Notes: a model not told the origin generated them from the sequence alone. 64,000 nucleotides of DNA from Bacteroidales bacterium (GCA_963682005.1 OY820914.1:4964979-5028978); one strand, 5' to 3'. Counted from the first letter of the stretch, positions 2,769 through 36,920 are shown. A program made the numbers and translations.

Positions 2769-2831
2769 CATCGTACCCGGGGCGGGAATCGAACCCGCAC
2801 GCCCTCGACGGGCACAGGATTTTAAGTCCTG
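2769..2831 (-). repeat. displaced 3' portion of tRNA-Leu(UAA); element-distal att direct repeat
   Basis: 63 nt identical to 36831-36893 except 2808 (A vs T at 36870). Covers the anticodon stem through the 3' end; the tRNA 5' half is missing. Confidence 0.85.
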
Positions 2832-2896
2832 ACAACTTTCCAGAAATACCAATAGAATCAGCCTTTTCGTTCTTGCATTTTGATGCAAAACACGAC

Positions 2897-2922
2897 ATTT
2901 CCGCACCTCATTTCCGCACCTC
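2897..2922 (+). repeat. tandem 13-bp ATTTCCGCACCTC x2; candidate integrase arm-type sites (left end)
   Basis: Core TTCCGCACC also occurs twice at 36717-36741 near the other element end, in the same orientation. Confidence 0.5.
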
Positions 2923-3019
2923 GTCTACCCAAATTTTTTTAAAAATTATTCCTTAAAAGGATACCAATATTCTATTGCCCAAAAATTCACAAATATGTTA
3001 AACCTAAAATCGAAAAGTT

Positions 3020-3712
3020 ATGGAAACAAACAACACCAAGACTGTCTTCATTGAATACAGTTATGCCAAGAAAGGCCAGCATTTCATGACCGTGGTTCAA
3101 ACAGTAAACCACGAAAGAATAATAATCGGACGGATTTTCAGGGAATACAATCCTGAAATTAAAAAAACCTATTACGAAGCTTATGATTTTCAAGGTAACC
3201 GGATTTTCGGCGATGGCCTAGATATCAGCGAACTGAAAAATAAATTCAAGAAAAGCGGAAAGTTTCTATCTGATATGGTAATTGGAATCAGAAGAGCCAA
3301 CTTAAAAGTAAACCTCAAACCGCAAGTTAATCAGAAACCCGCCAGAGTCAATGATATAAAATCAATCCGGGATAAGAAGAATGGCAGAGATAAAGGAAAA
3401 ACAAAAGATCACGAAAAGGAAAAGGCAAGCGAAAAAACAAAACTGAATCAGATGGAAAAAGTACAGGACGAAAAAAATCATGTTCAATACAAGGATCTCG
3501 GCAATGTCATTGACAGAGAGCAGGAAAACAACAAGTCACATGAAGTACGTGAATCAACATCAAACCCGGAGAACACAAATCAAGCTGACCAGGAGGACGA
3601 GTCCCAGGAAACTGAAAAGTCTGACAGGGAAATGGAATTGGAAGAGATAAGAGCAGACAATGACGACAGGGAACAGGACATAGACGGACCAGACCAAGAT
3701 ATGGACCTCTAA
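3020..3712 (+). CDS. hypothetical protein with globular N-domain and long K/E/D-rich acidic tail (230 aa)
   Basis: ORF; the N-domain is paralogous to the next ORF (..IIGRIFREY...YYEAYDFQGN..). Confidence 0.55.
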   Translation: METNNTKTVFIEYSYAKKGQHFMTVVQTVNHERIIIGRIFREYNPEIKKTYYEAYDFQGNRIFGDGLDISELKNKFKKSGKFLSDMVIGIRRANLKVNLKPQVNQKPARVNDIKSIRDKKNGRDKGKTKDHEKEKASEKTKLNQMEKVQDEKNHVQYKDLGNVIDREQENNKSHEVRESTSNPENTNQADQEDESQETEKSDREMELEEIRADNDDREQDIDGPDQDMDL

Positions 3713-3722
3713 AAAAACTGAC

Positions 3723-4097
3723 ATGAAAAAGACAGTTGACGAAAGAACGCAGGTAAAGTTCAGCAATCCAGATCTTTCAACGAGCATTATCAAAGTATCA
3801 AGAGTACTACCTGATGGCTCCGAGGAATTCATTGGACAAGTTTATCCTGAAATTGGAAACGGGGAGGAGTCGATAATATACCGCTCTGTCGATAGGAACG
3901 GTGAAGAAACGTTGCCCCCTACTTCAGATTTTATCGAAATCGAAAAACAATATGAAAAAAACATCCAAAACGCTGTCGAAATATCTTACTTCCAAGATAT
4001 GGAATCAATTATAGATGAATATGAAAGGAGAGAAGACGAGATTAAAATCTTACGTCATGATAAACACAGAACTAAATTAAAATTACTTCACAGATAA
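3723..4097 (+). CDS. hypothetical protein, paralog of the N-domain of the 3020 ORF (124 aa)
   Basis: ..FIGQVYPEI...IYRSVDRNGE.. aligns with the upstream protein; 10-nt spacing. Confidence 0.5.
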   Translation: MKKTVDERTQVKFSNPDLSTSIIKVSRVLPDGSEEFIGQVYPEIGNGEESIIYRSVDRNGEETLPPTSDFIEIEKQYEKNIQNAVEISYFQDMESIIDEYERREDEIKILRHDKHRTKLKLLHR

Positions 4098-4123
4098 TTA
4101 TTCATTCATTAAAACCACAAATT

Positions 4124-5209
4124 ATGAAAACAAAAACCGTTACGTTACAGACCGGCAACATCTTCGATCCTGTATTGGAGGAAATGTTGCAGAAAAGAGA
4201 TGATGAAATCAAGGTCTTAGTTGAAAAGAATGCGAAAAACTTCGCTCAACGAAACCTCCCGGCTCTTAAAGGAGACAATCTTTTAAACTATATCGGCGAA
4301 CCAAAAGCCAGATATGAAAAGCTGGCGGCCGATGTATTCCATTATCTCCAACCCGAAGCGCATTTTCCAGAAGCAAAGGTAGATGCCGGCTACTTCAAAG
4401 AGAAGGTAAAAAACATAGATTTAGAGATGAATGATAAGGAGGCTAAGAACCAGCATGACGAGAATAACTTAAGAGATTTTGCAAGAAATAGTATCCCGTC
4501 ACGCATCACCTGGGCATTCGTAGCCACTCTTATCATTACCCTCGGTGAAATAACGTTCAATACCAAAGCCTTTCAGGTGACAGGGGAAAGTCTTCTTTTC
4601 GCCTTGATCCTGTCTGTCTGTATTTCTTTTGCAGTGTTTCTCTTTGCTCACATCACTCCAATGCTTTATAAAGGAGCGACAAATAAGCTTCAAAGGATAG
4701 GCATAGTATCCGGGGCGCTTGTTCTCGTAACCTGCTTATTTATCGCCTTAGCAATCTTTAGATCAAGCTACCTGGCTACCCATGATGTCCATATCAGCCC
4801 CACATATTTTGTGATAATAAATCTTTTCTTCTTCATTGTTTCCACCCTGGTTTCATTCTTTGTCCTGCCTTCCTGGCCAGAGATAAAAGAGAACGCTTTA
4901 CTACTGAAACTTCAGTATGTTGTAAAGAAACGGAAGAAGGAAATAGAAAAGTTAAAGTTAGAACGTGAGAAAATCATGTCAACAATCTTAGAGAGGACAA
5001 AAATCCGGATCAGAATAGCACATTACTCAAACTACGCCGCCGAAAGGATCAAAAAAATGTATTACGAATCAGTAGGCATGTTTAAAACCAACAACCTGAT
5101 TTTCCGTAATGACGGCACCCCTCCTGATTGTTTTTCTGACGACCCTCCCATCCCTGAAATTGACAACTTTTATTATTCGCTGATATCCACTAAAGACGAT
5201 CAACCATGA
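4124..5209 (+). CDS. multi-pass membrane protein with coiled-coil N- and C-terminal regions (361 aa)
   Basis: About 5 hydrophobic helices in the middle (ITWAFVATLIITLG.., LLFALILSVCISFAVFLFAHI.., IGIVSGALVLVTCLFIALAIF.., YFVIINLFFFIVSTLVSFFVL). Confidence 0.6.
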   Translation: MKTKTVTLQTGNIFDPVLEEMLQKRDDEIKVLVEKNAKNFAQRNLPALKGDNLLNYIGEPKARYEKLAADVFHYLQPEAHFPEAKVDAGYFKEKVKNIDLEMNDKEAKNQHDENNLRDFARNSIPSRITWAFVATLIITLGEITFNTKAFQVTGESLLFALILSVCISFAVFLFAHITPMLYKGATNKLQRIGIVSGALVLVTCLFIALAIFRSSYLATHDVHISPTYFVIINLFFFIVSTLVSFFVLPSWPEIKENALLLKLQYVVKKRKKEIEKLKLEREKIMSTILERTKIRIRIAHYSNYAAERIKKMYYESVGMFKTNNLIFRNDGTPPDCFSDDPPIPEIDNFYYSLISTKDDQP

Positions 5210-5928
5210 AAACAGCAATTTATTTAGGCTCAACCCTTCTCATAATACTTGCCGGTATAATTATTATGAGGAAATCGCCCGATCAGCATTTTACTTCTAC
5301 CGATATAACCGTTATGCGGGATATCACGGATACTCAAATCTCACAACCCAAACTGTCCGATGTTTCCACTCTTTTAGATCTCGATAATTCAAAATGGGAT
5401 GGCGCAAACTTCAAATTCGTCGATATAACTGACGTGAGCTACAATCATATTTATGAAACTAAGATTCTACCTGAAAATCAATGGCTGGGTAATGAGTTGG
5501 ATCGGGATGAGAAAGTGAAGAAGTTCTATACTGAAATCTCCCAAATCCTTACTAATGCTGACACAGAGAAGGTAGGGAAGGTCAATTCTTCGATATATAA
5601 ACCTATTGCCTCTGAATTAAACTGTCTCAGTCTAAGTGCTTCACAAAACAAATCATTATTGGTCTACAGTGATTTGGAAGAGAATACTGACAAATTTTCT
5701 TTTTATGATAAGAAAAAAATCATCCTGTTAAGAACGGAACCGGACAGCATCCGAAAATACTTTGAAGCCCTCTCTCCCTTAAAAAATCTGACAGGAATCA
5801 AAGTCTTTCTGATTTACCAACCAAAAAATAACGAAGCCGATGAACTGTATCAACTAATTGCCGGATTGTACAAAACTCTACTGGAAAGTAAAGGAGCAAA
5901 AGTTGAAATCACCGCAAACATTAACTAA
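5206..5928 (+). CDS. membrane-anchored hypothetical protein (240 aa)
   Basis: 4-nt overlap with the upstream gene; single N-terminal TM AIYLGSTLLIILAGIIIM. Confidence 0.55.
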   Translation: MKTAIYLGSTLLIILAGIIIMRKSPDQHFTSTDITVMRDITDTQISQPKLSDVSTLLDLDNSKWDGANFKFVDITDVSYNHIYETKILPENQWLGNELDRDEKVKKFYTEISQILTNADTEKVGKVNSSIYKPIASELNCLSLSASQNKSLLVYSDLEENTDKFSFYDKKKIILLRTEPDSIRKYFEALSPLKNLTGIKVFLIYQPKNNEADELYQLIAGLYKTLLESKGAKVEITANIN

Positions 5929-5956
5929 AAGATTCAAACCCATAAAATTTTTAAAA

Positions 5957-6106
5957 ATGAAAAAGCGTGTAATCTTTTGGAGAATCTTGAAATGGTTTTT
6001 AGTACTTGCCTTCAAGATATTTATCGTTCTGCTTTGGGGAACCTTGAGATTGATAGAAGTAATCCTACAAAACCTCAATCCCTATCTTAAAAAATTGATT
6101 ACCTAA
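5957..6106 (+). CDS. small membrane protein (49 aa)
   Basis: ATG at 5957 inside the 5858..6106 ORF; hydrophobic WRILKWFLVLAFKIFIVLLWG. Confidence 0.3.
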   Translation: MKKRVIFWRILKWFLVLAFKIFIVLLWGTLRLIEVILQNLNPYLKKLIT

Positions 6107-6123: not shown

Positions 6124-7587
6124 ATGAAAGCAATTATCCAAATAATAACTTTAATCTTCGACCTTCTGAAAGGTATTTTTGACCTTCTATTTGAAGCGGG
6201 TGAATTTATCTTTCAAGCTTCAACTAAAAAAAAAGGATACCATTCCTCTTTTGCCTCCCAAGGGATCTTACTTTCCAGGTATAATAACGGATTCTGTTTG
6301 ACCGGCAGAAGAAACCTGAGCAAGAAAGATTGTTACCAAAATGCTTTAATAATCGGCGGAACCGGGACCGGTAAAACCAGTATTGTACTAATCCCTTCGC
6401 TATTTACCATGCAGGATAGCCTGGTGATTCATGATCCCTCTGGTGAACTCTATAACAAAAGTGCCGGCTATTTGAAACAAAGAGGCTTTGAAATCAAAGT
6501 TCTGAATTTTGCCAAACCTCAAAATTCATCTGGCTATAATCCTTTGATACGAGCACAGACTTCTTCCGACATTCAAAAAGTAGCCTCTTTGCTAATTGAT
6601 AATACATTAGGGAGTAAAGGGAAAGATCCCTTTTGGAACATCCAGGCAGTTTCGCTTCTAACCATGCTGATCACTATCTTAAAAAAACAACCCTTCGAAT
6701 ATCAAAATCTTTGCAATGTTCGCCAACTGCTCAACAGCCTTGGGGCCAATCCTGAATCAGTCGATACGCTATTCAGCGAATATGCCGATGATACTCTGTT
6801 TACAGAATACAAATCCTTTATTTCCTACGATGAAAAAGTAGTTAGCGGAGTAATCGCTACCTGCAAAGCAGCCCTTCAAATTTTCAATGATGAATATGTA
6901 GCCAAAGTGACCTCCTTCGACAATCTAGACCTGATGGAGTTCAGAAATAAGCCGACAGCTCTGTATATTCAAAATTCCATTGCCGACCAAAAATATTACA
7001 GTGTCCTGACTTCATTGTTCTTTGAGCAATTCTTTGCCTTTCTCTTAGGACGTTTTCCGGAGAAAAAGGAAAAAGACATTTTTCTCTTGATTGACGAAGC
7101 GGCTTCTTTAAACCTGCCCACTTTACCTTTGGCAGTTGCCAATGTTCGGAAACACCGTTCAGGCATTATGCTTTTGATTCAGGATTTTAATCAGTTGACA
7201 CATCATTACGGGAAATTTGATGCGGATGGCATTAAAGCGAATTGTTTTACCAAAATGTACTTCACCGGAGGATCTCTTGAAACTACCAAAGAACTTGAGC
7301 AAACCCTCGGGAAATATGAATATGAAGATAAGAAAAAAGGAATGGTGACCCGTTCATTAATGACCAATGACGAAATCCGAACTATGAAAATCAACAAAGC
7401 TTTACTCGTTTGCGGTCATCATCCACCGATCATAGCAAGATTGAAGCCTTATTATAAAAACAAGACTTATCTGCAATACAGCCAGCTCGAATCTCCGGAT
7501 ATTGAAACAGAGAAGCTTGCCTATGTCGTTCCATTATTACTCCTTGGATCTACCAAGAAATACCATGAAGAGAACCAGGAAGCATAA
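6124..7587 (+). CDS. type IV coupling protein (TraG/VirD4/MobC-type T4CP)
   Basis: N-terminal TM, Walker A GGTGTGKTS, Walker B-like IFLLIDEAASL; sits next to the relaxase. Confidence 0.85.
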   Translation: MKAIIQIITLIFDLLKGIFDLLFEAGEFIFQASTKKKGYHSSFASQGILLSRYNNGFCLTGRRNLSKKDCYQNALIIGGTGTGKTSIVLIPSLFTMQDSLVIHDPSGELYNKSAGYLKQRGFEIKVLNFAKPQNSSGYNPLIRAQTSSDIQKVASLLIDNTLGSKGKDPFWNIQAVSLLTMLITILKKQPFEYQNLCNVRQLLNSLGANPESVDTLFSEYADDTLFTEYKSFISYDEKVVSGVIATCKAALQIFNDEYVAKVTSFDNLDLMEFRNKPTALYIQNSIADQKYYSVLTSLFFEQFFAFLLGRFPEKKEKDIFLLIDEAASLNLPTLPLAVANVRKHRSGIMLLIQDFNQLTHHYGKFDADGIKANCFTKMYFTGGSLETTKELEQTLGKYEYEDKKKGMVTRSLMTNDEIRTMKINKALLVCGHHPPIIARLKPYYKNKTYLQYSQLESPDIETEKLAYVVPLLLLGSTKKYHEENQEA

Positions 7588-8074
7588 AGGGGCAATATGG
7601 GATTATCTCGAGACCTCCGGAGTACTTGAAAATGGCACAGATGAAGAGATAAAAGCGGCAAAAAAGGCATACAGAAAAGGATACTATCTAAGCTATAAAA
7701 GAAACCAACGTGCCAACAAGCCAGAGTTTATTATCAATTTTTCATCAGAGAATGGGGAGTATAGCAAGGTAAAGATGGCCGCAAAACATCATAAGATGAC
7801 CGTGACGGCCTTTATTCGATCATCAGTACTGGCATACCTGCAACAACGATTTCTCGTCCCTAATGCATTCCAAGTAGCCCATTTAGAGGAAACCCTCTCT
7901 CAATGTTTAAATGAAATACAAAAACTCGTCGGAGCTAAAGAAAAGTACTATTGGTCAAGAGAAGAAAAGTTTGAAGCAATTGAAAAAAGGATTGAAAAAC
8001 TTGAATATGACATAGATCAAGTATTTCGAAACCCTCCATTACTCCATCATGATAATCAAAATCAAATCCTTTAA
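7565..8074 (+). CDS. relaxosome accessory protein (RHH / MobA-MobC-like)
   Basis: Start taken at MKRTRKHKG. Contains a MTVTAFIRSSVLAYL ribbon-helix-helix-like segment. Overlaps the T4CP and relaxase genes. Confidence 0.55.
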   Translation: MKRTRKHKGAIWDYLETSGVLENGTDEEIKAAKKAYRKGYYLSYKRNQRANKPEFIINFSSENGEYSKVKMAAKHHKMTVTAFIRSSVLAYLQQRFLVPNAFQVAHLEETLSQCLNEIQKLVGAKEKYYWSREEKFEAIEKRIEKLEYDIDQVFRNPPLLHHDNQNQIL

Positions 8075-8891
8075 AAAGCCCGACTTCAAGAGACTGCTTG
8101 AATACATGCTCAATGATGAAAATCGCCTTTTTAACAGTAAAGACAAAAGTTTTTTTATCAGTCACAACTTAAAGGGAAGAAAGATTGATGGGCTGGTAAA
8201 GCAGTACTTGGAGAATGAAAAATTCCGTAAACGCAAAAGGAAAGACAGCGTAATTCTTACTCACGAAATTATTTCCTTTCATAAAGACGATTCAGATAAC
8301 ATTAACATCGAAAAACTGGAAGAAATCGCCAGGGAGTATATCAAACAAAGAAATAGCAGGGGAATATATGTAGCTGTCCCTCACTTTGATAAAGAACATT
8401 ACCATATTCATATCTGCGCTTCAGGCGTGGAATACCGGTTTGGGAAATCTCTGAGAATGTCCAAGGCAGGATTCCAGAAACTAAAAAAGGATATCCAAAA
8501 TTTTCAGATCGAACGGTTTCCGGAAATTTCCAAATCCTTGGTAGCTCATGATAAAAAAGGGAAGTCTCGACAAACGGAAAAGGAATACCAGCAAAAACTT
8601 AGAACCGGCAGGACTACTAAAAAAGAAAATGTCAGAGAAGCGATTGAGTCCTGTATAAAAACATCAAAATCAAAAAAAGAATTTTACACGAAGCTTAAAG
8701 AGTCTGGCTTTGAGATTTATAAAAGAAGCGGAAAGATCACCGGCGTTGTCTTGGACAAAATGAAGTTTCGCTTTGCTCGTCTCGGATTTACGGATGAAAG
8801 GTTTGAAGATCTGAATCAAGGCGATACACGAAGGAAAGACTTAAGTGAACTTAGAACGAAACGGGGAAAAACTATTATTCGCAACCGATAA
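8049..8891 (+). CDS. mobilization relaxase (MobA/VirD2 family)
   Basis: Histidine triad HFDKEHYHIHI; size and position typical of Bacteroidota mob relaxases. Confidence 0.8.
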   Translation: MIIKIKSFKKPDFKRLLEYMLNDENRLFNSKDKSFFISHNLKGRKIDGLVKQYLENEKFRKRKRKDSVILTHEIISFHKDDSDNINIEKLEEIAREYIKQRNSRGIYVAVPHFDKEHYHIHICASGVEYRFGKSLRMSKAGFQKLKKDIQNFQIERFPEISKSLVAHDKKGKSRQTEKEYQQKLRTGRTTKKENVREAIESCIKTSKSKKEFYTKLKESGFEIYKRSGKITGVVLDKMKFRFARLGFTDERFEDLNQGDTRRKDLSELRTKRGKTIIRNR

Positions 8892-8905: not shown

Positions 8906-9889
8906 ATGCATCATATTAAAAATCAAGCTCCGCTTGATGTATACACAATTGTAACAAACAGAATAATTGAATTGCTTGAAAAAGGCGTCATTCCTTGGCA
9001 AAAACCCTGGACCGAAGCCGGAATACCCAAGAATTTGATTACCGGAAAGAATTACCGGGGAATCAATGTCTGGCTATTAAATTCCTTAAACTACGCACAA
9101 AACAGTTTTTTAACATTTAAGCAGGTGCAGGATTTAGGAGCTTCAATAAAAAAAGGTGAAAAAGCCAATTTGGTAGTTTTTTGGAAATGGCTTGAAAAAG
9201 AAAATAAAGAAACAAAGGAAGTTGAAAGAATACCTTTACTAAGGTATTACAATGTTTTCAACATTGATCAGTGTACCGGAATACCCAAAGAGAAATTACC
9301 CCAAGTTATTGAAAGTAAAATTGACCCAATTGAAGCATGCGAAAAGATTATCACAGAAATGCCTAAGCGACCTGATATTCGACATGTTGAACAAAGAGCA
9401 TATTACAATAGATTGGAAGACTACGTAAATTTACCTAGAACAGAAACCTTTAAAACCAGTGAAGCATATTATGCTACACTTTTTCATGAGCTAGTCCACA
9501 GCAGTGGACATCCCGATAGATTAAACAGAAGGGAACTGACGGATAGCAAAGGTTTTAACTCACAGGATTACGCCGTTGAAGAATTAACCGCTGAAATGGG
9601 AGCATCTTACCTCAAATCTTATGCAGGAATCCCTATCGAACAACTTGATAACAATGCAGCTTATATCCATACCTGGCTAGAAAGATTAAAAAATGACAAA
9701 CGGTTTATAGTTCATTCCAGCGCCCAGGCACAGAAGGCAACTGATTTTATCCTAAATATCAGGAATGAAGAAAAGGAATTGGATATTCCTGAGCAAGTTG
9801 AAGATCTTGATAAAAACACTGTAAGGGAAGGGGAATTGAAAGAAACAAGAGGAAAGGAAAAAGAAAAATCTTTCGGGATTCAAAAATAA
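8906..9889 (+). CDS. ardC: ArdC-like antirestriction protein (ssDNA-binding N-domain + zincin)
   Basis: N-terminal IPWQKPW / NYRGINVWLL pattern and C-terminal HELVHSSGH metalloprotease motif. Confidence 0.8.
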   Translation: MHHIKNQAPLDVYTIVTNRIIELLEKGVIPWQKPWTEAGIPKNLITGKNYRGINVWLLNSLNYAQNSFLTFKQVQDLGASIKKGEKANLVVFWKWLEKENKETKEVERIPLLRYYNVFNIDQCTGIPKEKLPQVIESKIDPIEACEKIITEMPKRPDIRHVEQRAYYNRLEDYVNLPRTETFKTSEAYYATLFHELVHSSGHPDRLNRRELTDSKGFNSQDYAVEELTAEMGASYLKSYAGIPIEQLDNNAAYIHTWLERLKNDKRFIVHSSAQAQKATDFILNIRNEEKELDIPEQVEDLDKNTVREGELKETRGKEKEKSFGIQK

Positions 9890-12518: not shown

Positions 12519-12538
12519 AAAACTAACTTTAGAATAGA

Positions 12539-14239: not shown

Positions 14240-15042
14240 AATTTATTTTCATCAACGGATGCAGATTTAGGTTGCAGAATATCCTTACCAGTTAATTTGT
14301 ATTCTACTATTCGTTTTTTTGAAATTTCAAGTGCTTTTTCCGATATATCACATCCAACAAAGGTGCATTTGTTTTTTAGGGCTGCTATCGCTGAGGAAGC
14401 ACTACCTAAGAATGGATCGCAAACAGTAAAATTCTTATCTCCACTTGCAAATATCATTGCTTGGAATACTTCAACTGGTTTTTGCGTTGGATACTTGCTC
14501 GCGTGTATTCTTTTGAACCTCCAAACGTCAGGAAAGGTCCTATTTCGTATATGACGGTTATTACCATTAGTAGCAAAGATAATATATTCATGCCGTCGTC
14601 TAAAGTAATGCCCCATCCCAATATTCACCTTATCCCAAGTAATTAAATTTTTTACATCAAAGTACTCTCTTACTAGATGACCAAGGCTAAGCATGGAAAA
14701 TGAATCAAACATGATATAGATGTGTCCTGTCGAGGGTTTAAGGACCCGTTTACATTGTGTTAAAAACAATCTATAGTTCTCAGCCGAATCTTCAAACTCA
14801 CCAAACCATTTTCCGTTCTCCTTGCCTTTGTCTGAATATTGACCAACTATTCTACCTTTACCAAGCATAAGTTTATTGTTCATTCCAGAATAAGCTGGAT
14901 CAGTGACAATAATGTCTACACTTTGATCTGGTAATTTGCTTAGAAACGAGATCGCATCATCTCTAAATATCTTAACAGAGTTATCAGAGGATGAATAATA
15001 TAAGGTTTTTTTTGGGCGTACTTTTGGGCTACTCTTAGTCAT
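14230..15042 (-). CDS. beta-class N6A/N4C DNA methyltransferase
   Basis: Motif IV-like TDPAYSG lies N-terminal to motif I CDPFLGSASS; 10-nt overlap with the endonuclease gene. Confidence 0.85.
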   Translation of the reverse strand: MTKSSPKVRPKKTLYYSSSDNSVKIFRDDAISFLSKLPDQSVDIIVTDPAYSGMNNKLMLGKGRIVGQYSDKGKENGKWFGEFEDSAENYRLFLTQCKRVLKPSTGHIYIMFDSFSMLSLGHLVREYFDVKNLITWDKVNIGMGHYFRRRHEYIIFATNGNNRHIRNRTFPDVWRFKRIHASKYPTQKPVEVFQAMIFASGDKNFTVCDPFLGSASSAIAALKNKCTFVGCDISEKALEISKKRIVEYKLTGKDILQPKSASVDENKFWE

Positions 15043-22779: not shown

Positions 22780-22832
22780 CAATCATATCTCGTTGGAAAA
22801 AGATGCTCGTGGCCGAAGGGTTACTCTTAATC

Positions 22833-23577: not shown

Positions 23578-23583
23578 AAATTC

Positions 23584-23847: not shown

Positions 23848-23874
23848 GATATTTATTTTATAATATTTTATTTA

Positions 23875-24399
23875 TCATTGCCCTAGTATTTTAGTTCTAT
23901 ACGTACCTTCAAGTATCAGCCTGGCAAGATCATCCTCAACTTTTATGTTTGGGTTTATTCTCAATATCTCTTTCATAATAGCTTGTAGATCTTTAGAATT
24001 GAAGTGACCATAAGGTATAAGATACCTCACAAAAATACCCTTGGGTTCTTTGTAGTCAAATCCAAGATAGTTAGTATATGGAGTTTTCTTTTGTTTAACC
24101 GATACAAAGTCTAATATCTCTCCTGATTTTGCACCATTGAAATAACTAATTATAGTACTATCTTTAAACTCAATACGATCATAAAGAATAGTCCAAACAT
24201 CTAACATTAATTTAACCACCCATAGAACTAAAAGAACTATCCAAAATTCTTGATTCTTTAAAGTAGTCATTATTCTGAAATTATGCATTAGCAGAAGAAG
24301 ACAAATCGACATTACAATTGCCCAGGGCAATGTACTTTTGAATACTATTTTTTTATCTACTCTAAATATTTTATCTGGCAATGTTTTTTGTGTTTTCAT
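23875..24399 (-). CDS. 2-TM membrane protein with cytosolic domain, candidate cognate immunity protein (174 aa)
   Basis: Starts 9 nt after the rhs stop; hydrophobic helices WAIVMSICLLLLM and FWIVLLVLWVVKLML. Confidence 0.55.
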   Translation of the reverse strand: MKTQKTLPDKIFRVDKKIVFKSTLPWAIVMSICLLLLMHNFRIMTTLKNQEFWIVLLVLWVVKLMLDVWTILYDRIEFKDSTIISYFNGAKSGEILDFVSVKQKKTPYTNYLGFDYKEPKGIFVRYLIPYGHFNSKDLQAIMKEILRINPNIKVEDDLARLILEGTYRTKILGQ

Positions 24400-24408
24400 A
24401 TTTAATGT

Positions 24409-30530: not shown

Positions 30531-30819
30531 TAGGAGAAAAGACTGGAAGCTCTAAACGTGCATCACTTCTGCAATAAAGACACTGGTAATGAAAAAATTA
30601 ATCGAAGTTAATGATGACAGGGGACACAGACTTTCATATTCCAGGGATCGACAGGGGAAATCCAGGCTCTATTTCAGCCTTACCCCTACTGTCCTAAACC
30701 CTGTGGATAACCCGCTCAAAAGCCCCTTAACTTCCGCAAATTTTGCGGAGGACTACCGCAAAAATTACGGAACACTTCTGCAAAAAATGCGGATAACAAA
30801 AGAAACTCTACAAAATTAA
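30531..30819 (+). pseudogene. truncated, frameshifted second copy of the rep-like gene 3' end (direct repeat copy 2, 30531-30829)
   Basis: 76-aa ORF 30589-30819 is homologous to the C-terminus of the 22833-23230 product. Upstream homology continues to ~30531 with a 1-nt indel. Confidence 0.75.
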
Positions 30820-30979
30820 CTCTTACAAATATAAGCATTAGGCTTATCATCCACCTGACAAATTGACATAATATAAAAACCGGTATAACATTTGAATATT
30901 AGGAGTCCTCTCCTTACCCCAAAGTGCGATGGGTCGATAGGATAGAATATAAATGTTTTATTAACGAATATTAAATACC

Positions 30980-31234
30980 ATGGAAAAAAATCTAAAAAAG
31001 GATGTGACTATAATTGTCAATGGCGAACAAAAAGTGGTCCCAAAAGATGAGATAACCTATGAAGAGGTCGCAACTTTAGCGTTCCCTGATTTCGCAAATC
31101 ATCCAGAGCGAACATACGCCATTACTTATGAACGAGGACAAGGAAATAAACCTCAGGGAATTTTGTCACCTGGGGATAGTGTTAAAGTTAAAGATGGGAT
31201 GATATTTCATGTTAGAATCACTGGCCAGTCATAA
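30980..31234 (+). CDS. ubiquitin-like beta-grasp protein ('multiubiquitin'-type single domain, 84 aa)
   Basis: VTIIVNGEQKVV..ITYEEVATLAF...YAITYERGQGNKPQGILSPGDSVKVKDGMIFHVRITGQS matches the remembered family pattern. Confidence 0.65.
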   Translation: MEKNLKKDVTIIVNGEQKVVPKDEITYEEVATLAFPDFANHPERTYAITYERGQGNKPQGILSPGDSVKVKDGMIFHVRITGQS

Positions 31235-32375
31235 TCCTGACATTGAAAGATTACGGCAAAAAGGATATGCAATATCTTTTGATAGTAACTATTTAGTTAT
31301 CCGTGATATCTCATACTTAGATAATAATAAGAATCTACAACAAGGTGCTATTGTTTCTAAGGTTGTCTTTATTGATAACGAGCATGTCAAACAAGAAGAT
31401 CATCAAATTTTCTTTTGTGGCTCTCATCCCCACCAAGCGGACGGAAATCCAATAAAAAATTTTGGTGGAGGTGAGGTTAACTTGCAATTATCATCACCCG
31501 ATCTAGTTGTTCAAAGATCATTTTCTAATAAACCTGCTGCGGGGTACGAGGATTTCTTTGATAAAATTGAGACATATGTCACAATAATTTCCGGACCGGC
31601 TATGCAACTCTTTGGAGAAGAGGCAAACCCTTTTACCTTCCGCTCAATTCTAGGAACAACTGAGTCAGTTTTTAAATGTCATGACACATTGACTTCTAGA
31701 GCAGAGATAGGTGATTTAGCGCTAAAATTCAAAGACGATGTAATTGCCATAATCGGACTTGGGGGAACAGGTTCATATCTCCTCGATTTTTTAGTTAAAA
31801 CACCTGTTAAAGAAATTCGGGCATTTGATTGCGATAAGTACCATGTACATAATGCTTTTCGTAGTCCCGGAAAACTGGAGATATCAGAACTAGGTAAACC
31901 TAAGACTAACGTCTATCAATCCAGGTATGAAAATTTCAGAAATGGCCTCAGTTTTTATAATAAATATATTCAGTCTGATTCTATGTCGGATTTAGAAGGG
32001 GTAACATTTGCTTTTGTATGTGTAGATAAGGGAACTGCACGCAAAGAGATTTTTGACCTTCTTTTTAAAATGAATATTTCTTTCATTGATGTAGGTATGG
32101 GTCTTGACAGAATGCAAGGAATTCTTTCGGGAATTTTGCGTACTACATATTTCTCAAATGAAACAGCCCAAGAACTAATCAAGAAAAACTATGTCCCGCT
32201 AACTGATATTAATGATGAGGAATATCGTAATAATATTCAGATTTCTGAACTTAATGCTTTAAATGCTTGTATAGCAGTAATCAAGTATAAGAAAATTCGT
32301 GGTTTCTATGTAGAAGATGATTCTTTCCACCAAATGCTTTTTACCATTGATACGCTATCTCACCTTGGAGAATGA
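31209..32375 (+). CDS. ThiF/E1-like adenylyltransferase with an extra ~170-aa N-terminal domain (388 aa)
   Basis: Rossmann IAIIGLGGTGSYLLDFL, FDCDKYHVHNAFRSPG, FVCVDKGTARKEI. 26-nt overlap with the Ubl gene. Confidence 0.75.
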   Translation: MLESLASHNPDIERLRQKGYAISFDSNYLVIRDISYLDNNKNLQQGAIVSKVVFIDNEHVKQEDHQIFFCGSHPHQADGNPIKNFGGGEVNLQLSSPDLVVQRSFSNKPAAGYEDFFDKIETYVTIISGPAMQLFGEEANPFTFRSILGTTESVFKCHDTLTSRAEIGDLALKFKDDVIAIIGLGGTGSYLLDFLVKTPVKEIRAFDCDKYHVHNAFRSPGKLEISELGKPKTNVYQSRYENFRNGLSFYNKYIQSDSMSDLEGVTFAFVCVDKGTARKEIFDLLFKMNISFIDVGMGLDRMQGILSGILRTTYFSNETAQELIKKNYVPLTDINDEEYRNNIQISELNALNACIAVIKYKKIRGFYVEDDSFHQMLFTIDTLSHLGE

Positions 32376-32809
32376 TAAAAAAAATTAAATTAATAAAAGT
32401 TCAATATATCCCAGGTCAACTCGAAGAAGGAACTTTATATCTTTCAGAAGAATATAAGGTTGCAGTTCATTTGTGTCCGTGTGGTTGTGGTAACAAAGTT
32501 GTAACTCCTCTTGGTCCAACTGATTGGTCATTCAAAGAGGTTGATGGTCAACCTTCACTTTATCCTTCAATTGGAAACTGGCAAATACCATGTAGATCCC
32601 ATTATTTTATCATTAACGGGATTATTGAATGGTCATATCAATGGACTAAAGAAGAAATTGAAACAGGAAGAAAAATCGAAGACTTGCAGAGAACACAGTA
32701 CTACAATGATCTGCCTCATTTCCAAAAAAAACAACACTTAATTATTAGAATTTTTAACCGATTAATGAGAATTTTTAAGAACCGAACTAACCAGAGAAAA
32801 AAAGGATGA
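32372..32809 (+). CDS. Cys-rich small protein (DUF6527-like), third gene of the Ubl operon (145 aa)
   Basis: HLCPCGCGNKV ... IPCRSHY Cys/His cluster; 4-nt overlap with the E1 gene. Confidence 0.55.
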   Translation: MIKKIKLIKVQYIPGQLEEGTLYLSEEYKVAVHLCPCGCGNKVVTPLGPTDWSFKEVDGQPSLYPSIGNWQIPCRSHYFIINGIIEWSYQWTKEEIETGRKIEDLQRTQYYNDLPHFQKKQHLIIRIFNRLMRIFKNRTNQRKKG

Positions 32810-34413: not shown

Positions 34414-34943
34414 ATAGTGTAAGTCTTTATTTTATTACGCTAATCTATTTTTCAGAATCTTGGTCAAATTTGGCTAAACTCTTGGTCAATTTTGGCTGCG
34501 CTTCTGGCTCAATCCTTACCTTCCCTTATTGTTTCTTTGCGCTTCTAAGAGCAAATATAGCTCAAAATAAATTGTTCTTTGAAAAAAGCCCTATTTCCGG
34601 TAAAAGCGGAAATAAGGCCAAGCCCTCAAGTAATGATTGCAGTCACTACCGAGGTAAAAGTAGTATACACCTTTGGGATACAATGTCAAGCTAACCTTCC
34701 AGGTTTCCCAATCCTTTTACTCCCTTATTCAGCTTTCATTCCTTGGGATTTCTAAAAATAATTAGAAACCTAATTCTAATGTTATGAACTTAGAACTTAA
34801 TGCGGAAAGGCGAATACAGGAGTGGTACTTGCAAAATTCACCTGATTATTTAAAAAATAAGCCGTCAAGCTATCCTGAAAAGGATTGCGAGCCTTTACCC
34901 AAGAAACCTCTTGGACCAAAACCAATCCTAAAAGCTATATTTT

Positions 34944-35258
34944 ATGTTCACGGAGAGATTATACCTTGAAGAGATACAAAAATTACTTCATTATCGTGAC
35001 CGAAGATCGATAAGACGATGGTGCAGGAATAACCACGTCCGGATTTTATCCGATAATGGCAGTAATAAGCAATTTGTATTAAGGGATGAATTTGAAAGAG
35101 AATTAAATAACCTCCATTCCAAAAGCCCAGTGGAAAAGAAATTCTACAAGAGAATGTTAAAAAGGAATCTCATAGACAAGGTGAAAAGAGCTGCGAAATA
35201 CAGGCCACAAGGGGAATACGAAAAAGATTTCTTGTCAATATTTACAAATCTATTATAA
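34944..35258 (+). CDS. excisionase-like HTH DNA-binding protein (104 aa)
   Basis: LYLEEIQKLLHYRDRRSIRRWCRNNHVRIL HTH-like segment; ends 8 nt upstream of the integrase gene. Confidence 0.5.
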   Translation: MFTERLYLEEIQKLLHYRDRRSIRRWCRNNHVRILSDNGSNKQFVLRDEFERELNNLHSKSPVEKKFYKRMLKRNLIDKVKRAAKYRPQGEYEKDFLSIFTNLL

Positions 35259-35265
35259 AGGGACT

Positions 35266-36699
35266 ATGATACCCACGATGGAATACAAACCCTTGATAAT
35301 CCCAGAATCAAAAAGATGGAAGGGGTTGAAGGTTTTCTGTTATGAATGCGGAACAAGCGTATCAGATATTTGTAAAAGTTCGGGTAACCCGATATCACAA
35401 TGCAAGCATGGAGATCAACATGTATTCAAAGTTGTTGTCCACGTGCCAGGAACTAAAAATCAGAGAAGAACAAAAAAATTAGAAACACGAGATGTAAACG
35501 AAGCGATAGCCCAGGCAATCGAATTTGAGAAAGAAGCCAAGAGCGAAGCCTACGAGAGTCCAAGGAAAAAGATTCAAAAGAAAGAAATAGAAAAGGAAGA
35601 CCTGGATGAAAGCAAGCCGTATCTCTTAATCCATGCGCTTGCCAGATATATAGGCTGGCTAAACAACGAAGGTGTACCGGCACATTTGATAAAGGTAAGG
35701 AGTAGGGAACATATAAAGGATGTAGAACGTGCCCTAAAAAGTCTCATTGAGTGCTTAAAAGATAATGACTACCATCTTCCGACTTTTACGATGGAAGACA
35801 TTAATAATAATATGGTGGGAAAGGTTTTCCTTTTTTTAGAAAAGAGAAGGTTTGCTTCCAGAACATTTAATAAGTACCTCAGTTATTACACCTCTTTCCT
35901 AAGCTGGTATGCCGAGGAATATGATTTCCCCATCCGAAATTATTTTGAAAAAGTCAAAAGGAAGAACTTGAATCCAAAGCCTCAAGCGATAACACTTCCA
36001 GAGTATCAAGCTCTATTGGAAATCATCAACCCCGAGAATGGCATTAAGGAATATAAAAATGGAGTAAAGGAGAAAAGGAATTTCTATCGACCCTGGCTTG
36101 TCGATGGTTTCCGTCTTGCTCTTGAAACAGGAAGACGAAGGGAAGAGATCATAAACTTAAAATGGAACTACATCGAGGAAAGTAATGGCATACCATATAT
36201 AAAGGTAGAGGACTTCAAAGTTAATCGGATTCAAAACCGGCTTTCTGAAGACGAAAAGAAGTTCAACTATATTCCTATCACAGAATCCTTAGCGAAGCTC
36301 CTTAAAGATTTAGGTCAGGACCAATACGCCAACACGGACAATTTTATCTTGGCTCCCGAGATTTCAATAAGTCGTAAAAGGGTGATGGCAGATACTTTGA
36401 GCCGGGGCTTCTCCCATTATTATAACCAGCTTAAAACGGGAAGGAGGCTCACTTTCAAATGTTTAAGAAAAACCTATATAACGAATCTTGAGATTTTCAT
36501 GGGTAGAGGACATACGAGGGATGTTACCGGACATACCAATGATCAAGTGATAGAAAGAAGCTACTTAGACAAGCGAGAGATAGCAAAAGCAGCTCATGGA
36601 TTTCAGGTATTCCCCGATGAACCCCAGCGTAACCAAGAATTAAAGGAGATCAGAGATGAAAGAGAAAAGAACAATGAACCAAAAAGCCTAGAGGTATAA
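35266..36699 (+). CDS. int: tyrosine integrase of the element (477 aa)
   Basis: ETGRRREEI, KCLRKTYIT, TGHTNDQVIERSY catalytic-type motifs; N-terminal Cys/His cluster CYECG..C..C.H; ends 137 nt from tRNA-Leu. Confidence 0.85.
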   Translation: MIPTMEYKPLIIPESKRWKGLKVFCYECGTSVSDICKSSGNPISQCKHGDQHVFKVVVHVPGTKNQRRTKKLETRDVNEAIAQAIEFEKEAKSEAYESPRKKIQKKEIEKEDLDESKPYLLIHALARYIGWLNNEGVPAHLIKVRSREHIKDVERALKSLIECLKDNDYHLPTFTMEDINNNMVGKVFLFLEKRRFASRTFNKYLSYYTSFLSWYAEEYDFPIRNYFEKVKRKNLNPKPQAITLPEYQALLEIINPENGIKEYKNGVKEKRNFYRPWLVDGFRLALETGRRREEIINLKWNYIEESNGIPYIKVEDFKVNRIQNRLSEDEKKFNYIPITESLAKLLKDLGQDQYANTDNFILAPEISISRKRVMADTLSRGFSHYYNQLKTGRRLTFKCLRKTYITNLEIFMGRGHTRDVTGHTNDQVIERSYLDKREIAKAAHGFQVFPDEPQRNQELKEIRDEREKNNEPKSLEV

Positions 36700-36716
36700 A
36701 ATGGAAGAATTTAAGA

Positions 36717-36741
36717 TTTTCCGCACCCAAATTCCGCACCT
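36717..36741 (+). repeat. two TTCCGCACC repeats; candidate arm-type sites (right end)
   Basis: TTTTCCGCACCC and ATTCCGCACCT; the same core as 2897-2922. Confidence 0.5.
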
Positions 36742-36792
36742 TGAACAAATTTTTCTTCTATCCTGCGGTTTCCTTGACTTCCTCTTGGATAT

Positions 36793-36833
36793 AAAAAAAT
36801 GCCGAAACGCTTATTTATCTAGCATTTCGGCAT
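36793..36833 (-). terminator. element-encoded terminator for the reconstituted tRNA-Leu
   Basis: ATGCCGAAA (36799-36807) / TTTCGGCAT (36825-36833) followed on the minus strand by T7. Confidence 0.6.
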
Positions 36834-36835
36834 CG

Positions 36836-36920
36836 TACCCGGGGCGGGAATCGAACCCGCACGCCCTCGTCGGGCACAGGATTTTAAGTCCTGCGTGTCT
36901 ACCAGTTCCACCACCCGGGC
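36836..36920 (-). tRNA. tRNA-Leu(UAA)
   Basis: Reverse complement GCCCGGGTGGTGGAACTGGTAGACACGCAGGACTTAAAATCCTGTGCCCGACGAGGGCGTGCGGGTTCGATTCCCGCCCCGGGTA. Long variable arm, anticodon loop CTTAAAA, close to E. coli leuZ. CCA not encoded. Confidence 0.95.

What the first reader, a model, noticed from the sequence alone, without database searches (positions are those of the whole stretch)
2769..36920. 34-kb mobilizable island integrated in tRNA-Leu(UAA), bounded by a 63-bp direct repeat
Evidence for the boundaries:
- Positions 36831-36893 (anticodon stem to the 3' end of the intact tRNA, plus 5 nt) recur at 2769-2831 with a single mismatch (2808 A vs 36870 T, in the variable-arm loop).
- A 477-aa tyrosine integrase and an Xis-like HTH gene abut the intact tRNA.

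The interior has a T4CP, an RHH accessory protein, a relaxase, ArdC and RadC. I recognise no mating-pore genes, so it probably depends on a co-resident conjugative element. By eye it is more AT-rich than 37-64 kb, and I noticed none of the core's oligomer repeats inside it.
Basis: partly seen in the sequence, partly recalled or inferred. Interest (0 to 1): 0.55.

Follow-up and report, generated by a model that had tools for sequence, protein, structure and literature searches.

The report
Mobilizable defence island in tRNA-Leu
A 34-kb piece of mobile DNA sits in a leucine tRNA gene of an uncultured Bacteroidales bacterium; it can probably cut itself out and ride another element's mating pore, which is an ordinary kind of element, but it belongs to a widespread, undescribed family.

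Summary
A 63-nt direct repeat (62/63 identical) lies at 2769-2831 and 36831-36893. The second copy is the 3' part of the intact tRNA-Leu(UAA) at 36835-36920. Only two tRNAs exist in the window, so the left copy is a fragment.

Relatives from metagenomes fix the left boundary. In seven distinct attR junction sequences, different host tRNA-Leu sequences all end at ...AAGTCCTG and then join a recognisably similar element arm. Two relatives have both ends on one contig, one of them beside mutS, as here.

The element has an intact tyrosine integrase, an Xis-like gene and paired arm repeats (TTCCGCAC) at both ends. It carries a conserved nine-gene transfer operon: five unknown proteins, a VirD4-type coupling protein, an RHH accessory protein, a relaxase and ArdC. 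No VirB4 or other pore gene was found, so it is best read as an integrative mobilizable element.

Cargo is mostly defence (PDC-S06, an AlwI-type restriction-modification system, a type II Bub operon) plus an Rhs toxin and an IS66 insertion.

One correction: the DNA to the left is not plain chromosome. It is a second integrase-bearing element of about 7.5 kb. Excision and transfer are inferred, not shown. This is a new member of a known kind.

The parts
2769..2831 (-). attR: displaced copy of the 3' part of tRNA-Leu. 2773-2831 derives from the tRNA; 2769-2772 (CATC) is also shared with the other copy.
   Evidence: 63-nt direct repeat, 62/63 identical. Not a tRNA by ARAGORN or Rfam. Relatives carry a host-specific tRNA-Leu 3' part that ends at the same ...AAGTCCTG junction.
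2832..3019 (+). Element arm next to attR. It holds the conserved junction block ACAACTTTCCAG..., the inverted repeat TTGCATTTTGATGCAA (2874-2889), and two 13-nt direct repeats CATTTCCGCACCT (2896-2922), read as arm-type integrase sites. It is the only sizeable non-coding DNA of the transfer operon, so it is also the candidate region for the promoter and oriT.
   Evidence: Alignment of seven elements. TRF repeat at 2896-2922. Exact TTCCGCAC occurs only four times in 64 kb, all at the two island ends. The oriT assignment is inference only.
3020..6106 (+). Five conserved proteins of unknown function: 230 aa with an acidic tail (3020-3712); 124 aa (3723-4097); 361 aa, all-helical with about four hydrophobic membrane-type helices (4124-5209); 240 aa, membrane-anchored and VWA-like (5206-5928); about 49 aa with one hydrophobic segment (5957-6106).
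   Evidence: Colinear with the T4CP in most of the 32 metagenome loci that reach far enough upstream, at 38-93% identity; L105 shows no match to them. No Pfam, NCBIfam or PHROG match. Models: pLDDT 84 with no fold match; pLDDT 89 with weak VWA-like matches, TM 0.3-0.4. Membrane segments are read from the sequences.
6124..7587 (+). VirD4-type coupling protein (T4CP), 487 aa.
   Evidence: PF02534, E 5e-57. NCBIfam CD1115-family VirD4-like, 238 bits, just under the 250-bit cutoff. Walker A GGTGTGKT and Walker B FLLIDE. At most 28% identical to any PLSDB plasmid T4CP.
7565..8074 (+). Putative ribbon-helix-helix relaxosome accessory protein (169 aa from the ATG at 7565).
   Evidence: Weak NikA-like match, E 0.011. 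Conserved between the T4CP and relaxase genes in relatives.
8049..8891 (+). Relaxase of the MobA/VirD2 (MOB_P/Q-like) type, 280 aa.
   Evidence: PF03432, E 1e-14. Weak TraI/MobA(P) NCBIfam match. Histidine motif HFDKEHYHIH at residue 112.
8906..9889 (+). ArdC-type anti-restriction protein (ssDNA-binding N domain plus zincin peptidase). Last gene of the conserved operon.
   Evidence: PF08401 and PF18818. Conserved in relatives; gene content diverges after it.
9927..15042 (-). Defence cargo: PDC-S06 AAA_13/SMC-like ATPase (9927-12587), AlwI-family type II endonuclease (12539-14239) and N6/N4 DNA methyltransferase (14230-15042).
   Evidence: Pfam. PADLOC: PDC-S06 E 4e-175, REase_II E 9e-64, MTase_II E 5e-132.
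15401..16922 (+). Two-gene cassette of unknown role: DUF4747 protein plus a 215-aa partner.
   Evidence: PF15931, E 3e-31. Both match PHROGs of unknown function. No PADLOC match.
17940..19728 (.). RadC-like JAB protein (17940-18527, -) and a second, Xer-like tyrosine recombinase (18850-19728, +).
   Evidence: Pfam. Both are conserved at about 70% identity in the complete relative L120.
20487..23230 (+). RepO-like initiator gene (20487-20553 plus 22833-23230, 154 aa when joined) with 22-nt x3 iteron-like repeats at 23141-23204. It is split by an IS66-family element (20554-22824) that has 31-nt terminal inverted repeats and an 8-bp target duplication, TCTTAATC.
   Evidence: IS66 Pfam domains. 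Inverted repeats. Duplication read directly from the sequence. 68% identity to the intact 154-aa gene in L120. Rep_O Pfam and PHROG matches. Iterons.
23335..30471 (-). Rhs/YD-repeat toxin of 2020 aa (SpvB, FG-GAP and RHS domains) followed by three small ORFs that may encode immunity proteins.
   Evidence: Pfam. Internal repeats of about 399 nt. The immunity role is inference.
30562..30829 (+). Second, partial copy (85% identical) of the 3' part of the RepO-like gene, including the iterons. Together with 22973-23240 it brackets the Rhs block.
30980..32809 (+). Type II Bub (bacterial ubiquitination-like, '6E.2') operon: BubA Ubl (84 aa), BubBD E2-E1 fusion (388 aa) and BubE (145 aa).
   Evidence: PF14452, PF20590 plus PF00899, and PF20137. 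The gene set matches the type II definition in PMC11601596.
32824..34413 (-). TPR-repeat protein, 529 aa.
   Evidence: Pfam. A TPR protein holds the same position in relatives L120 and L132.
34784..36699 (+). Recombination module: 61-aa ORF (34784-34969), 104-aa Xis-like HTH protein (34944-35258) and 477-aa tyrosine integrase (35266-36699).
   Evidence: The same trio sits next to tRNA-Leu in relatives.
36700..36834 (.). Element arm next to attL. It holds two TTCCGCAC repeats (36719-36739) and an element-borne hairpin (36798-34, - strand) with a U-run, which terminates the restored tRNA-Leu.
   Evidence: Fold: -20.3 kcal/mol, z = -6.0. Relatives have hairpins of the same structure but different sequence.
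36831..36920 (-). attL (36831-36893) inside the intact tRNA-Leu(UAA) gene (36835-36920).
   Evidence: The mutS - tRNA-Gly - tRNA-Leu order is conserved in Bacteroidales genomes.

Best explanation
This is an integrative mobilizable element (IME) of 34,062 bp, counting one repeat copy plus the interior. It is integrated in the tRNA-Leu(UAA) gene downstream of mutS in an uncultured Bacteroidales bacterium.

Proposed mechanism (steps are marked shown or inferred):
1. The element's attP carries a copy of the tRNA from the anticodon loop to the 3' end. The integrase recombined this copy with the chromosomal tRNA gene. Shown: the resulting 63-nt direct repeats, and a tRNA rebuilt from a chromosomal 5' part, an element-derived 3' part and an element-borne terminator.
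2. The integrase, helped by the Xis-like protein and bound at paired arm sites (TTCCGCAC x2 on each arm), excises the element as a circle. This places the integrase gene next to the transfer operon. Inferred. Relatives L131 and L132, in which int is directly followed by that operon, show that this circular gene order is conserved.
3. The relaxase and the RHH accessory protein nick an oriT that has not been located. The best candidate is the conserved non-coding arm at 2832-3019. The element's own VirD4-type coupling protein then delivers the DNA to the mating pore of a co-resident conjugative element, because the island has no VirB4 or other pore genes. Inferred.
4. ArdC would protect the incoming DNA in the recipient, and the element integrates into that cell's tRNA-Leu. 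A RepO-like initiator with iterons, and an Xer-like recombinase, may maintain the circular form. Here the RepO-like gene is split by IS66. Inferred.

The variable part is cargo: PDC-S06, an AlwI-type restriction-modification system, a DUF4747 pair, a type II Bub operon and an Rhs toxin.
For: Repeat and tRNA:
- 63-nt direct repeat, one copy inside the intact tRNA.

Boundary:
- In seven distinct attR junction sequences (11 loci), host-specific tRNA-Leu 3' parts end at the same base and join a homologous element arm.

Target specificity:
- Integrase relatives at 55-65% identity abut tRNA-Leu(UAA) in L005, L116/L117 and L120-L122; in L042 a 44%-identical hit lies next to a tRNA-Leu-like match.

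Complete relatives:
- Ga0268283_1000003 (L090 plus L120) holds an element of about 27.8 kb between a tRNA fragment and tRNA-Leu/tRNA-Gly/mutS.
- Ga0172369_10001285 (36.3 kb; L093 plus L117) carries both ends.

Intact machinery:
- Integrase catalytic residues, T4CP Walker motifs and the relaxase histidine motif are present.
- Arm repeats occur at the two ends only.
- The nine-gene operon is conserved and colinear, while cargo differs between relatives.

No pore genes:
- No T4SS or VirB4 match in any island ORF of 70 aa or more. Structure searches gave none either.

Other:
- Element-borne terminators show the same structure with different sequences.
- GC is 0.363 against 0.436 in the core.
Against: - No excision product, empty site in the same species, or transfer was observed. 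Exact-protein look-ups returned only the occupied arrangement.
- oriT is not identified.
- A helper element was not sought, because the rest of the genome was not available.
- The RepO-like gene is disrupted by IS66.
- Five conserved operon proteins, three with predicted membrane segments, have no assigned role. A non-canonical contribution to the pore cannot be formally excluded.
- The 268-nt internal duplication suggests that the present element is a recombinant of two relatives.
Confidence: 0.85

Rival explanations
1. It is a fixed, decaying genomic island. It arrived by the same route but can no longer excise or transfer, so it now acts only as a chromosomal defence and toxin locus.
For: There is one mismatch in the repeat. 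IS66 sits inside the RepO-like gene. A 268-nt internal duplication is present. A second element abuts attR. No empty site or circular junction was found.
Against: All backbone ORFs are full length and 40-93% identical to relatives. Integrase, T4CP and relaxase motifs are intact. Arm repeats are intact at both ends. The repeat is 62/63 identical. The IS66 duplication is perfect, which points to a recent insertion.
Confidence: 0.1
2. It is self-transmissible. The five conserved unknown proteins upstream of the T4CP (three with membrane segments, one VWA-like) would form or replace a mating pore of a so far unknown, VirB4-less kind.
For: These genes are as conserved and as strictly colinear with the T4CP as the relaxase is. 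The 361-aa family has about 1000 cluster representatives and no annotation. The T4CP is at most 28% identical to any plasmid T4CP.
Against: Every known ssDNA conjugation system that uses a VirD4-type coupling protein also has a VirB4 ATPase (established knowledge; the review PMC5704250 describes the T4SS as CP plus MPF). None is present here. Five small proteins are far fewer than any known pore. Neither model matches a solved T4SS component.
Confidence: 0.04
3. The 34 kb are not one unit but two related elements fused. In this reading 2832 to about 23240 comes from one relative and about 30562 to 36830 from another, joined by recombination in the RepO/iteron region, with the Rhs block captured in between.
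For: The 268-nt direct repeat, 85% identical, covers the 3' part of the RepO-like gene and its iterons and brackets the Rhs block. In relative L120 the RepO-like gene is directly followed by the TPR gene.
Against: No internal att-like tRNA fragment exists. There is only one family-type integrase and one transfer operon. The outer ends match those of single relatives. This account concerns the element's history and is compatible with the main explanation.
Confidence: 0.3

Closest known systems
NBU1 / NBU2 (Bacteroides mobilizable insertion elements)
   Same: They are integrated, non-self-transmissible elements of Bacteroidota with a tyrosine integrase and a MobP-type relaxase. They depend on a conjugative helper. 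NBU1 targets a Leu-tRNA gene (PMC10865867; PMC5704250).
   Different: NBU1's core lies at the 3' end of the tRNA, not at the anticodon loop. Here the identity block runs from the anticodon loop to the 3' end (59 nt of tRNA). The review table lists no coupling protein for NBU1 or NBU2; this island has its own VirD4-type T4CP, an RHH accessory protein and ArdC. The integrase has a Cys4 N-terminus and no significant Arm-DNA-bind_5 match. From my own knowledge, NBU1 is about 10 kb; this island is 34 kb.
Streptococcal IMEs that encode their own VirD4 coupling protein and a canonical relaxase (e.g. IME_SsalCCHSS3_ND)
   Same: The IME brings both relaxase and coupling protein and is thought to replace the helper's coupling protein at the helper's pore (PMC5704250).
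   Different: Those are from Firmicutes and pair VirD4 with a MobC relaxase. Here the host is Bacteroidota and the relaxase is of the MobA/VirD2 (MOB_P/Q-like) type. Five extra conserved proteins also sit upstream of the T4CP.
tRNA-gene islands with tyrosine integrases that cross over in the anticodon loop (classic phage/island attP-tRNA arrangement)
   Same: attP carries the tRNA from the anticodon loop to the 3' end. The gene is restored on integration, the integrase lies next to the intact tRNA, and a displaced 3' fragment marks the far end. The paper read notes that anticodon-loop attP/attB sites are common in mycobacteriophages; the wider pattern is my own knowledge.
   Different: Nothing differs in principle. 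The specific features here are the paired TTCCGCAC arm repeats on both arms and an element-borne terminator for the restored tRNA.
Tandem accretion of integrated elements at one tRNA gene (e.g. the IME_Sag2603_tRNAlys composite)
   Same: Two unrelated integrase-bearing elements lie side by side at one tRNA gene and share a hybrid att site (PMC5704250).
   Different: Whether the left neighbour uses the tRNA 3' end (15-nt repeat) or a 25-nt site just beyond the tRNA terminator is unresolved.

Membership tests
Integrative mobilizable element (IME) | Site-specific recombinase with att repeats that bound the element | tested here: met
   Tyrosine integrase with its catalytic residues. 63-nt direct repeats. 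The same junction is found in relatives.
Integrative mobilizable element (IME) | Own relaxase and/or oriT | tested here: inconclusive
   The relaxase is present, with its histidine motif. oriT was not located. The conserved arm at 2832-3019 is only a candidate.
Integrative mobilizable element (IME) | No complete mating-pair formation system (no VirB4 or pore proteins) | tested here: met
   No T4SS family other than the T4CP matched in Pfam or NCBIfam for any island ORF of 70 aa or more. Fold searches of two unknown proteins were negative.
Integrative mobilizable element (IME) | Excision and mobilization in trans by a helper element | not testable with these tools
   This needs junction PCR, long reads and mating assays. 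No empty site or circular junction was found in the assemblies reached.
Integrative conjugative element (ICE; Bacteroidota MPF_B / CTnDOT type) | VirB4-family ATPase (TraG of CTnDOT) and Tra pore proteins encoded in the element | tested here: not met
   None was detected. The only large ORFs are a PDC-S06 ATPase and an Rhs protein.
NBU1-like elements | Short common core at the very 3' end of the Leu-tRNA gene | tested here: not met
   For the 34-kb island the identity block spans the anticodon loop to the 3' end. NBU1's core is at the 3' end, not the anticodon loop. The left neighbour, not the island, has a 15-nt repeat of the tRNA 3' end.
NBU1-like elements | Relaxase only, with the coupling protein supplied by the helper | tested here: not met
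   The island encodes its own VirD4-type T4CP. The review table lists no coupling protein for NBU1 or NBU2.
tRNA-targeting island, anticodon-loop type | The element copy of the tRNA runs from the anticodon loop to the 3' end, and the tRNA gene is restored | tested here: met
   The repeat ends at ...TTTTAAGTCCTG in the anticodon loop/stem. The intact tRNA scores 59 bits in Rfam.
Type II Bub operon (cargo) | Ubl (BubA) plus E2-E1 fusion (BubBD) plus DUF6527 protein (BubE), with no JAB peptidase | tested here: met
   PF14452; PF20590 plus PF00899; PF20137, in that order at 30980-32809. Definition taken from PMC11601596. The catalytic Ser and Tyr residues were not checked.
IS66-family insertion sequence (cargo) | TnpB and DDE transposase of the IS66 type, terminal inverted repeats and an 8-bp target duplication | tested here: met
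   PF05717 and PF03050. 31-nt inverted repeats. TCTTAATC lies on both sides.

The most novel reading that the evidence does not exclude
The five conserved unknown genes upstream of the T4CP (3020-6106) are a new functional module of conjugative mobilization. These are a 230-aa protein with an acidic tail, a 124-aa protein, a 361-aa four-helix membrane protein, a 240-aa membrane-anchored VWA-like protein and a 49-aa membrane peptide. They could be an adaptor that lets a foreign VirD4-type coupling protein dock on the Bacteroidota-type pore of a helper. At the extreme, they could be a VirB4-less minimal translocon that makes the element self-transmissible. Either way, the element would define a widespread IME family of environmental Bacteroidota that had gone unrecognised. 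The scale is 347 integrase homologues at E <= 1e-20 and about 1000 cluster representatives of the 361-aa protein.
Probability: 0.12. Interest if true: 0.7.

Novelty: new member of a known kind. Interest (0 to 1): 0.38.

Why it matters
The element shows how defence systems (PDC-S06, restriction-modification, Bub) and an Rhs toxin travel between environmental Bacteroidota. The vehicle is a mobilizable island with a fixed two-part backbone and freely exchanged cargo.

The family seems common in freshwater, peat and digester metagenomes but has no described member. Its exact att architecture is defined here: the core, the arm repeats and the element-borne terminator. That makes its members easy to delimit in genomes.

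Among the Bacteroidota IMEs listed in the 2017 review, none carries its own coupling protein. The conserved unknown membrane proteins next to this one are therefore a concrete target for experiments on how IMEs plug into a helper's pore.

Tried and rejected
Searches that found nothing useful:
- Same-species empty site or circular junction. Exact-protein look-ups for MutS, the two left-flank proteins and the integrase returned only the occupied arrangement. They also show Logan contigs that break inside the repeat, which says nothing about excision.
- IMG/VR scan with the integrase: no relative.
- Pfam, NCBIfam and PHROG searches of ORFs 3020-6106: nothing.
- Profile search of the 361-aa family: about 1000 representatives, but ten distant members have no meaningful Pfam domain.

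Leads that were followed and dropped:
- Best plasmid T4CP hit (small plasmid of Desulfotalea psychrophila, 27.5% identity): its neighbouring genes are unrelated to the operon.
- A MOB_P-like nick motif, ATCCTGC near 36764 in the attL arm, was considered as oriT. It is not conserved in relatives, so it was rejected.
- ARAGORN called a 'complete tRNA-Leu' next to the operon in L093 and L095. Its 5' half is the element arm, and it fails the Rfam tRNA model. It was rejected as a second tRNA.
- I first read the hairpin at 2741-2765 as the original chromosomal tRNA terminator, and later as part of the left element. The closest relative L004 has a homologous flank with no integrase nearby, so the question is left open.
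- Prophage or satellite reading: no capsid, terminase or other virion genes appear in any Pfam or PHROG scan. Rejected.

Tools or papers that were unavailable:
- The original NBU1 paper.

Full report
**1. The observation**

ARAGORN finds two tRNA genes in the window, both on the - strand: tRNA-Leu(taa) at 36835-36920 and tRNA-Gly(gcc) at 37011-37084. Rfam agrees and finds nothing else. The repeat finder returns a 63-nt direct repeat at 2769-2831 and 36831-36893, with one mismatch at 2808/36870. The right copy covers the tRNA from its anticodon loop to its 3' end, plus four or five bases. The left copy is not part of any tRNA gene.

- integrase at 35266-36699;
- a 104-aa Xis-like gene at 34944-35258 (excisionase PHROG, E 0.002);
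- T4CP at 6124-7587;
- relaxase at 8049-8891;
- ArdC at 8906-9889;
- RadC at 17940-18527.

The RHH accessory protein has only a weak NikA-like match (E 0.011). GC is 0.363 in the island without IS66 and 0.436 in 36921-64000. The short tandem oligomer arrays of the core (53.5-62.6 kb) do not occur inside the island.

**2. Host and site**

The MutS protein next to the tRNAs is at most 77% identical to any species-representative genome. The best hits are Bacteroidales and Draconibacterium MAGs. The order mutS - tRNA-Gly - tRNA-Leu(UAA) recurs in many of these genomes, so the tRNA is a core gene. The identical integrase sits on a 5.27-Mb NCBI contig (P0001).

**3. Comparative proof of the boundaries**

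A metagenome scan with the T4CP returned 32 loci. In most of those that reach far enough upstream, the nine genes 3020-9889 are colinear with the window. They are mostly 40-93% identical (38% at the lowest, for the small ~49-aa ORF); L105 shows no match to the upstream genes.

Loci that extend further left show a host-specific terminator hairpin, then a host-specific tRNA-Leu 3' part. That part ends at exactly ...TTTTAAGTCCTG and joins an element arm that begins ACAACTTTCCAG in most loci and is more diverged in L093 and L094. Because the tRNA sequences differ between hosts while the arm is conserved, 2831/2832 is the true left end.

On the right side, integrase relatives of 55-65% identity lie next to tRNA-Leu(UAA) in L005, L116/L117 and L120-L122. 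In L042 a 44%-identical integrase hit lies next to a tRNA-Leu-like match.

Two relatives are complete:
- On Ga0268283_1000003 the tRNA fragment (L090) and the integrase, tRNA-Leu, tRNA-Gly and mutS (L120) are about 27.8 kb apart. This is the same chromosomal site as in the window.
- Ga0172369_10001285 (36.3 kb; L093 plus L117) carries both ends with a 59-nt repeat.

An ARAGORN 'tRNA' next to the operon in L093 is an artefact. Its 5' half is the element arm, and it fails the Rfam tRNA model.

**4. Architecture of the att site**

The exact octamer TTCCGCAC occurs four times in 64 kb. It appears twice at 2899-2919 on the arm next to attR, and twice at 36719-36739 on the arm next to attL, just after the integrase stop. 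The same paired motif flanks relatives. I read these as arm-type integrase sites; that is an inference.

Between the attL-side repeats and the tRNA 3' end lies a strong hairpin followed by a U-run on the tRNA strand (-20.3 kcal/mol, z = -6). L117, L120 and L005 have hairpins of the same shape but different sequence. The element therefore supplies a terminator for the tRNA it rebuilds.

The integrase has the catalytic set R291, K318, R401, H423 and Y433, with K398 where the usual histidine sits. It also has four invariant N-terminal cysteines.

**5. Transfer functions**

The T4CP has Walker A and B motifs, and the relaxase has the motif HFDKEHYHIH. The T4CP scores just under the NCBIfam cutoff for the CD1115 family of VirD4-like proteins. 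It is at most 28% identical to any plasmid T4CP in PLSDB.

These ORFs have no Pfam, NCBIfam or PHROG match.
- The 361-aa protein is all-helical, and its sequence shows about four hydrophobic membrane-type segments. Its model (pLDDT 84) matches no solved structure meaningfully. Its family has about 1000 cluster representatives without annotation.
- The 240-aa protein (pLDDT 89) has an N-terminal helix that reads as a membrane anchor and a weakly VWA-like domain.

No VirB4-type ATPase or other pore protein is found among the island ORFs. The element therefore fits an IME that brings its own relaxosome and coupling protein and borrows a pore.

Among the Bacteroidota IMEs listed in the 2017 review (NBU1, NBU2, Tn4399, Tn4555, cLV25, Tn5520), none carries a coupling protein. 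The listed IMEs with their own VirD4 are streptococcal and pair it with a MobC relaxase (PMC5704250).

**6. Backbone and cargo**

The left operon (3020-9889) and the right module (61 aa, Xis-like, Int) are common to all relatives examined. The closest complete relative (L120) also shares RadC, the second Xer-like recombinase, the RepO-like gene and a TPR protein. The other complete relative does not.

Cargo in the window:
- a PDC-S06 ATPase with an AlwI-type endonuclease and its methyltransferase;
- a DUF4747 pair;
- a 2020-aa Rhs protein;
- a type II Bub operon (PMC11601596).

An IS66-family element (20554-22824) has 31-nt inverted repeats and a perfect 8-bp duplication, TCTTAATC. It splits the RepO-like gene, which would otherwise encode 154 aa, as in L120. 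The 3' part of that gene carries three 22-nt iteron-like repeats. This part is duplicated at 85% identity at 30562-30829, so the two copies bracket the Rhs block. L120 has a 22-nt repeat at the same place. This suggests a replication origin and a past recombination between two relatives.

**7. Correction: the left flank**

The sequence 1-2768 has a GC of 0.316. A Logan contig (L002) extends it 4.8 kb further left. It shows a 421-aa integrase (Arm-DNA-bind_5, SAM_5 and catalytic domains), an HTH_17 protein and several unknown genes.

This segment is flanked by two nested direct repeats:
- 15 nt identical to the tRNA-Leu 3' end (L002:50-64 and window 2773-2787);
- 25 nt (L002:190-214 and window 2703-2727).

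There are two possibilities. It may be an NBU1-like element inserted at the tRNA 3' end, with the 25-mers as arm sites. Or it may have inserted into the 25-nt site just beyond the tRNA terminator. I cannot decide between them.

The second reading has some support. Hosts with no such integrase nearby also carry two 7-8-nt direct repeats, 12 nt apart, right after the tRNA-Leu terminator. The repeat sequence differs by lineage (L004, L124/L085, L104, L090). What these paired repeats are remains unexplained. Either way, the 34-kb island is one member of a tandem array at this tRNA. Such arrays are a known pattern for IMEs.

**8. Other relatives**

In L131 and L132 the Xis-like and integrase genes are followed directly by the transfer operon, with no tRNA-like core between them. 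This is the gene order expected for the circular form of the window's element. It supports the view that the two ends belong together. It also means that these variants keep their att site elsewhere or have lost it.

**9. Verdict**

The element is a typical tRNA-integrated mobilizable island in mechanism. It is a new, uncharacterised family in membership. Excision, transfer, oriT and the helper element remain inferred. Its conserved unknown membrane proteins next to its own coupling protein are the only part that could hold a real surprise.

Noticed in passing
window 1-2768 plus L002:1-7621: A second integrase-bearing element of about 7.3-7.5 kb abuts attR. It encodes a 421-aa integrase with an Arm-DNA-bind_5 domain, an HTH_17 protein and two secreted-looking proteins. 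It is flanked by nested direct repeats: 15 nt of the tRNA-Leu 3' end, and a 25-mer TTTA[C/A]AGTCCCCTCTACAGTCCCCC. Which pair is its att site is unresolved.
   Followed up: partly
window 2709-2727; L004:12964-12982; L124:8581-8600; L104:6615-6633; L090:6595-6613: Right after the tRNA-Leu terminator, several hosts carry two 7-8-nt direct repeats exactly 12 nt apart. The sequence differs by lineage (GTCCCC, GGGCACCC, GGGTACA/GGATACA, GGGTATT/GGATACT). Two of these hosts (L004, L124) have no integrase gene in the flank that could be read. Their function is unknown.
   Followed up: partly
window 36798-36834 (- strand); L117:11510-11558; L120:11520-11566; L005 near 3058-3100: Each element of the family carries its own hairpin plus U-run immediately after the tRNA 3' end that it restores. 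The structure is the same but the stem sequences differ.
   Followed up: yes
window 30980-32809: A complete type II Bub (bacterial ubiquitination-like, 6E.2) operon is carried as cargo: BubA, the BubBD E2-E1 fusion and BubE.
   Followed up: partly
window 9927-15042: A PDC-S06 candidate defence ATPase (E 4e-175) lies directly beside, and on the same strand as, an AlwI-family endonuclease and its methyltransferase. They may act as one unit.
   Followed up: no
window 20487-23230: An IS66-family element (2271 bp, GC 0.49) has a perfect 8-bp target duplication and splits a RepO-like initiator gene. The insertion looks recent.
   Followed up: yes
window 22973-23240 and 30562-30829: A 268-nt duplication (85% identical) of the 3' end of the RepO-like gene, with three 22-nt palindromic iteron-like repeats, brackets the Rhs block. 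It hints at an origin of replication and at recombination between two related elements.
   Followed up: partly
window 24409-30471: A 2020-aa Rhs/SpvB/FG-GAP protein has roughly 399-nt internal repeats (28226-29316) and three small downstream ORFs. Its C-terminal toxin domain is unidentified.
   Followed up: no
window 35266-35410 (integrase residues 25-46): The integrase family has four invariant N-terminal cysteines (C25, C28, C36, C46), which suggests a zinc-binding domain. Lysine replaces the usual histidine of the HxxR box (K398).
   Followed up: partly
L131:3917-10334; L132:4599-13132: In these relatives the Xis-like and integrase genes are followed directly by the transfer operon, with no tRNA-like core between them. 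In L131 the integrase stop codon abuts the next start codon. Their att site must lie elsewhere or has been lost.
   Followed up: partly
L093:65-150; L095:65-150: ARAGORN calls a complete tRNA-Leu here, but its 5' half is the element arm, which vaguely resembles the real tRNA 5' half. It fails the Rfam tRNA model.
   Followed up: yes
window 53517-62584: The core region holds many short tandem arrays of 7-8-nt units (GTCAGAA, AGCCAAT, TTTTGAC, TGATGAGG, ATCACTCC, TGACCCTG x8.8, TCATAAT). None occurs in the island.
   Followed up: no
window 4124-5209: The 361-aa membrane protein belongs to a large unannotated family: 1002 cluster representatives at E <= 0.001, nearly all 340-370 aa.
   Followed up: partly
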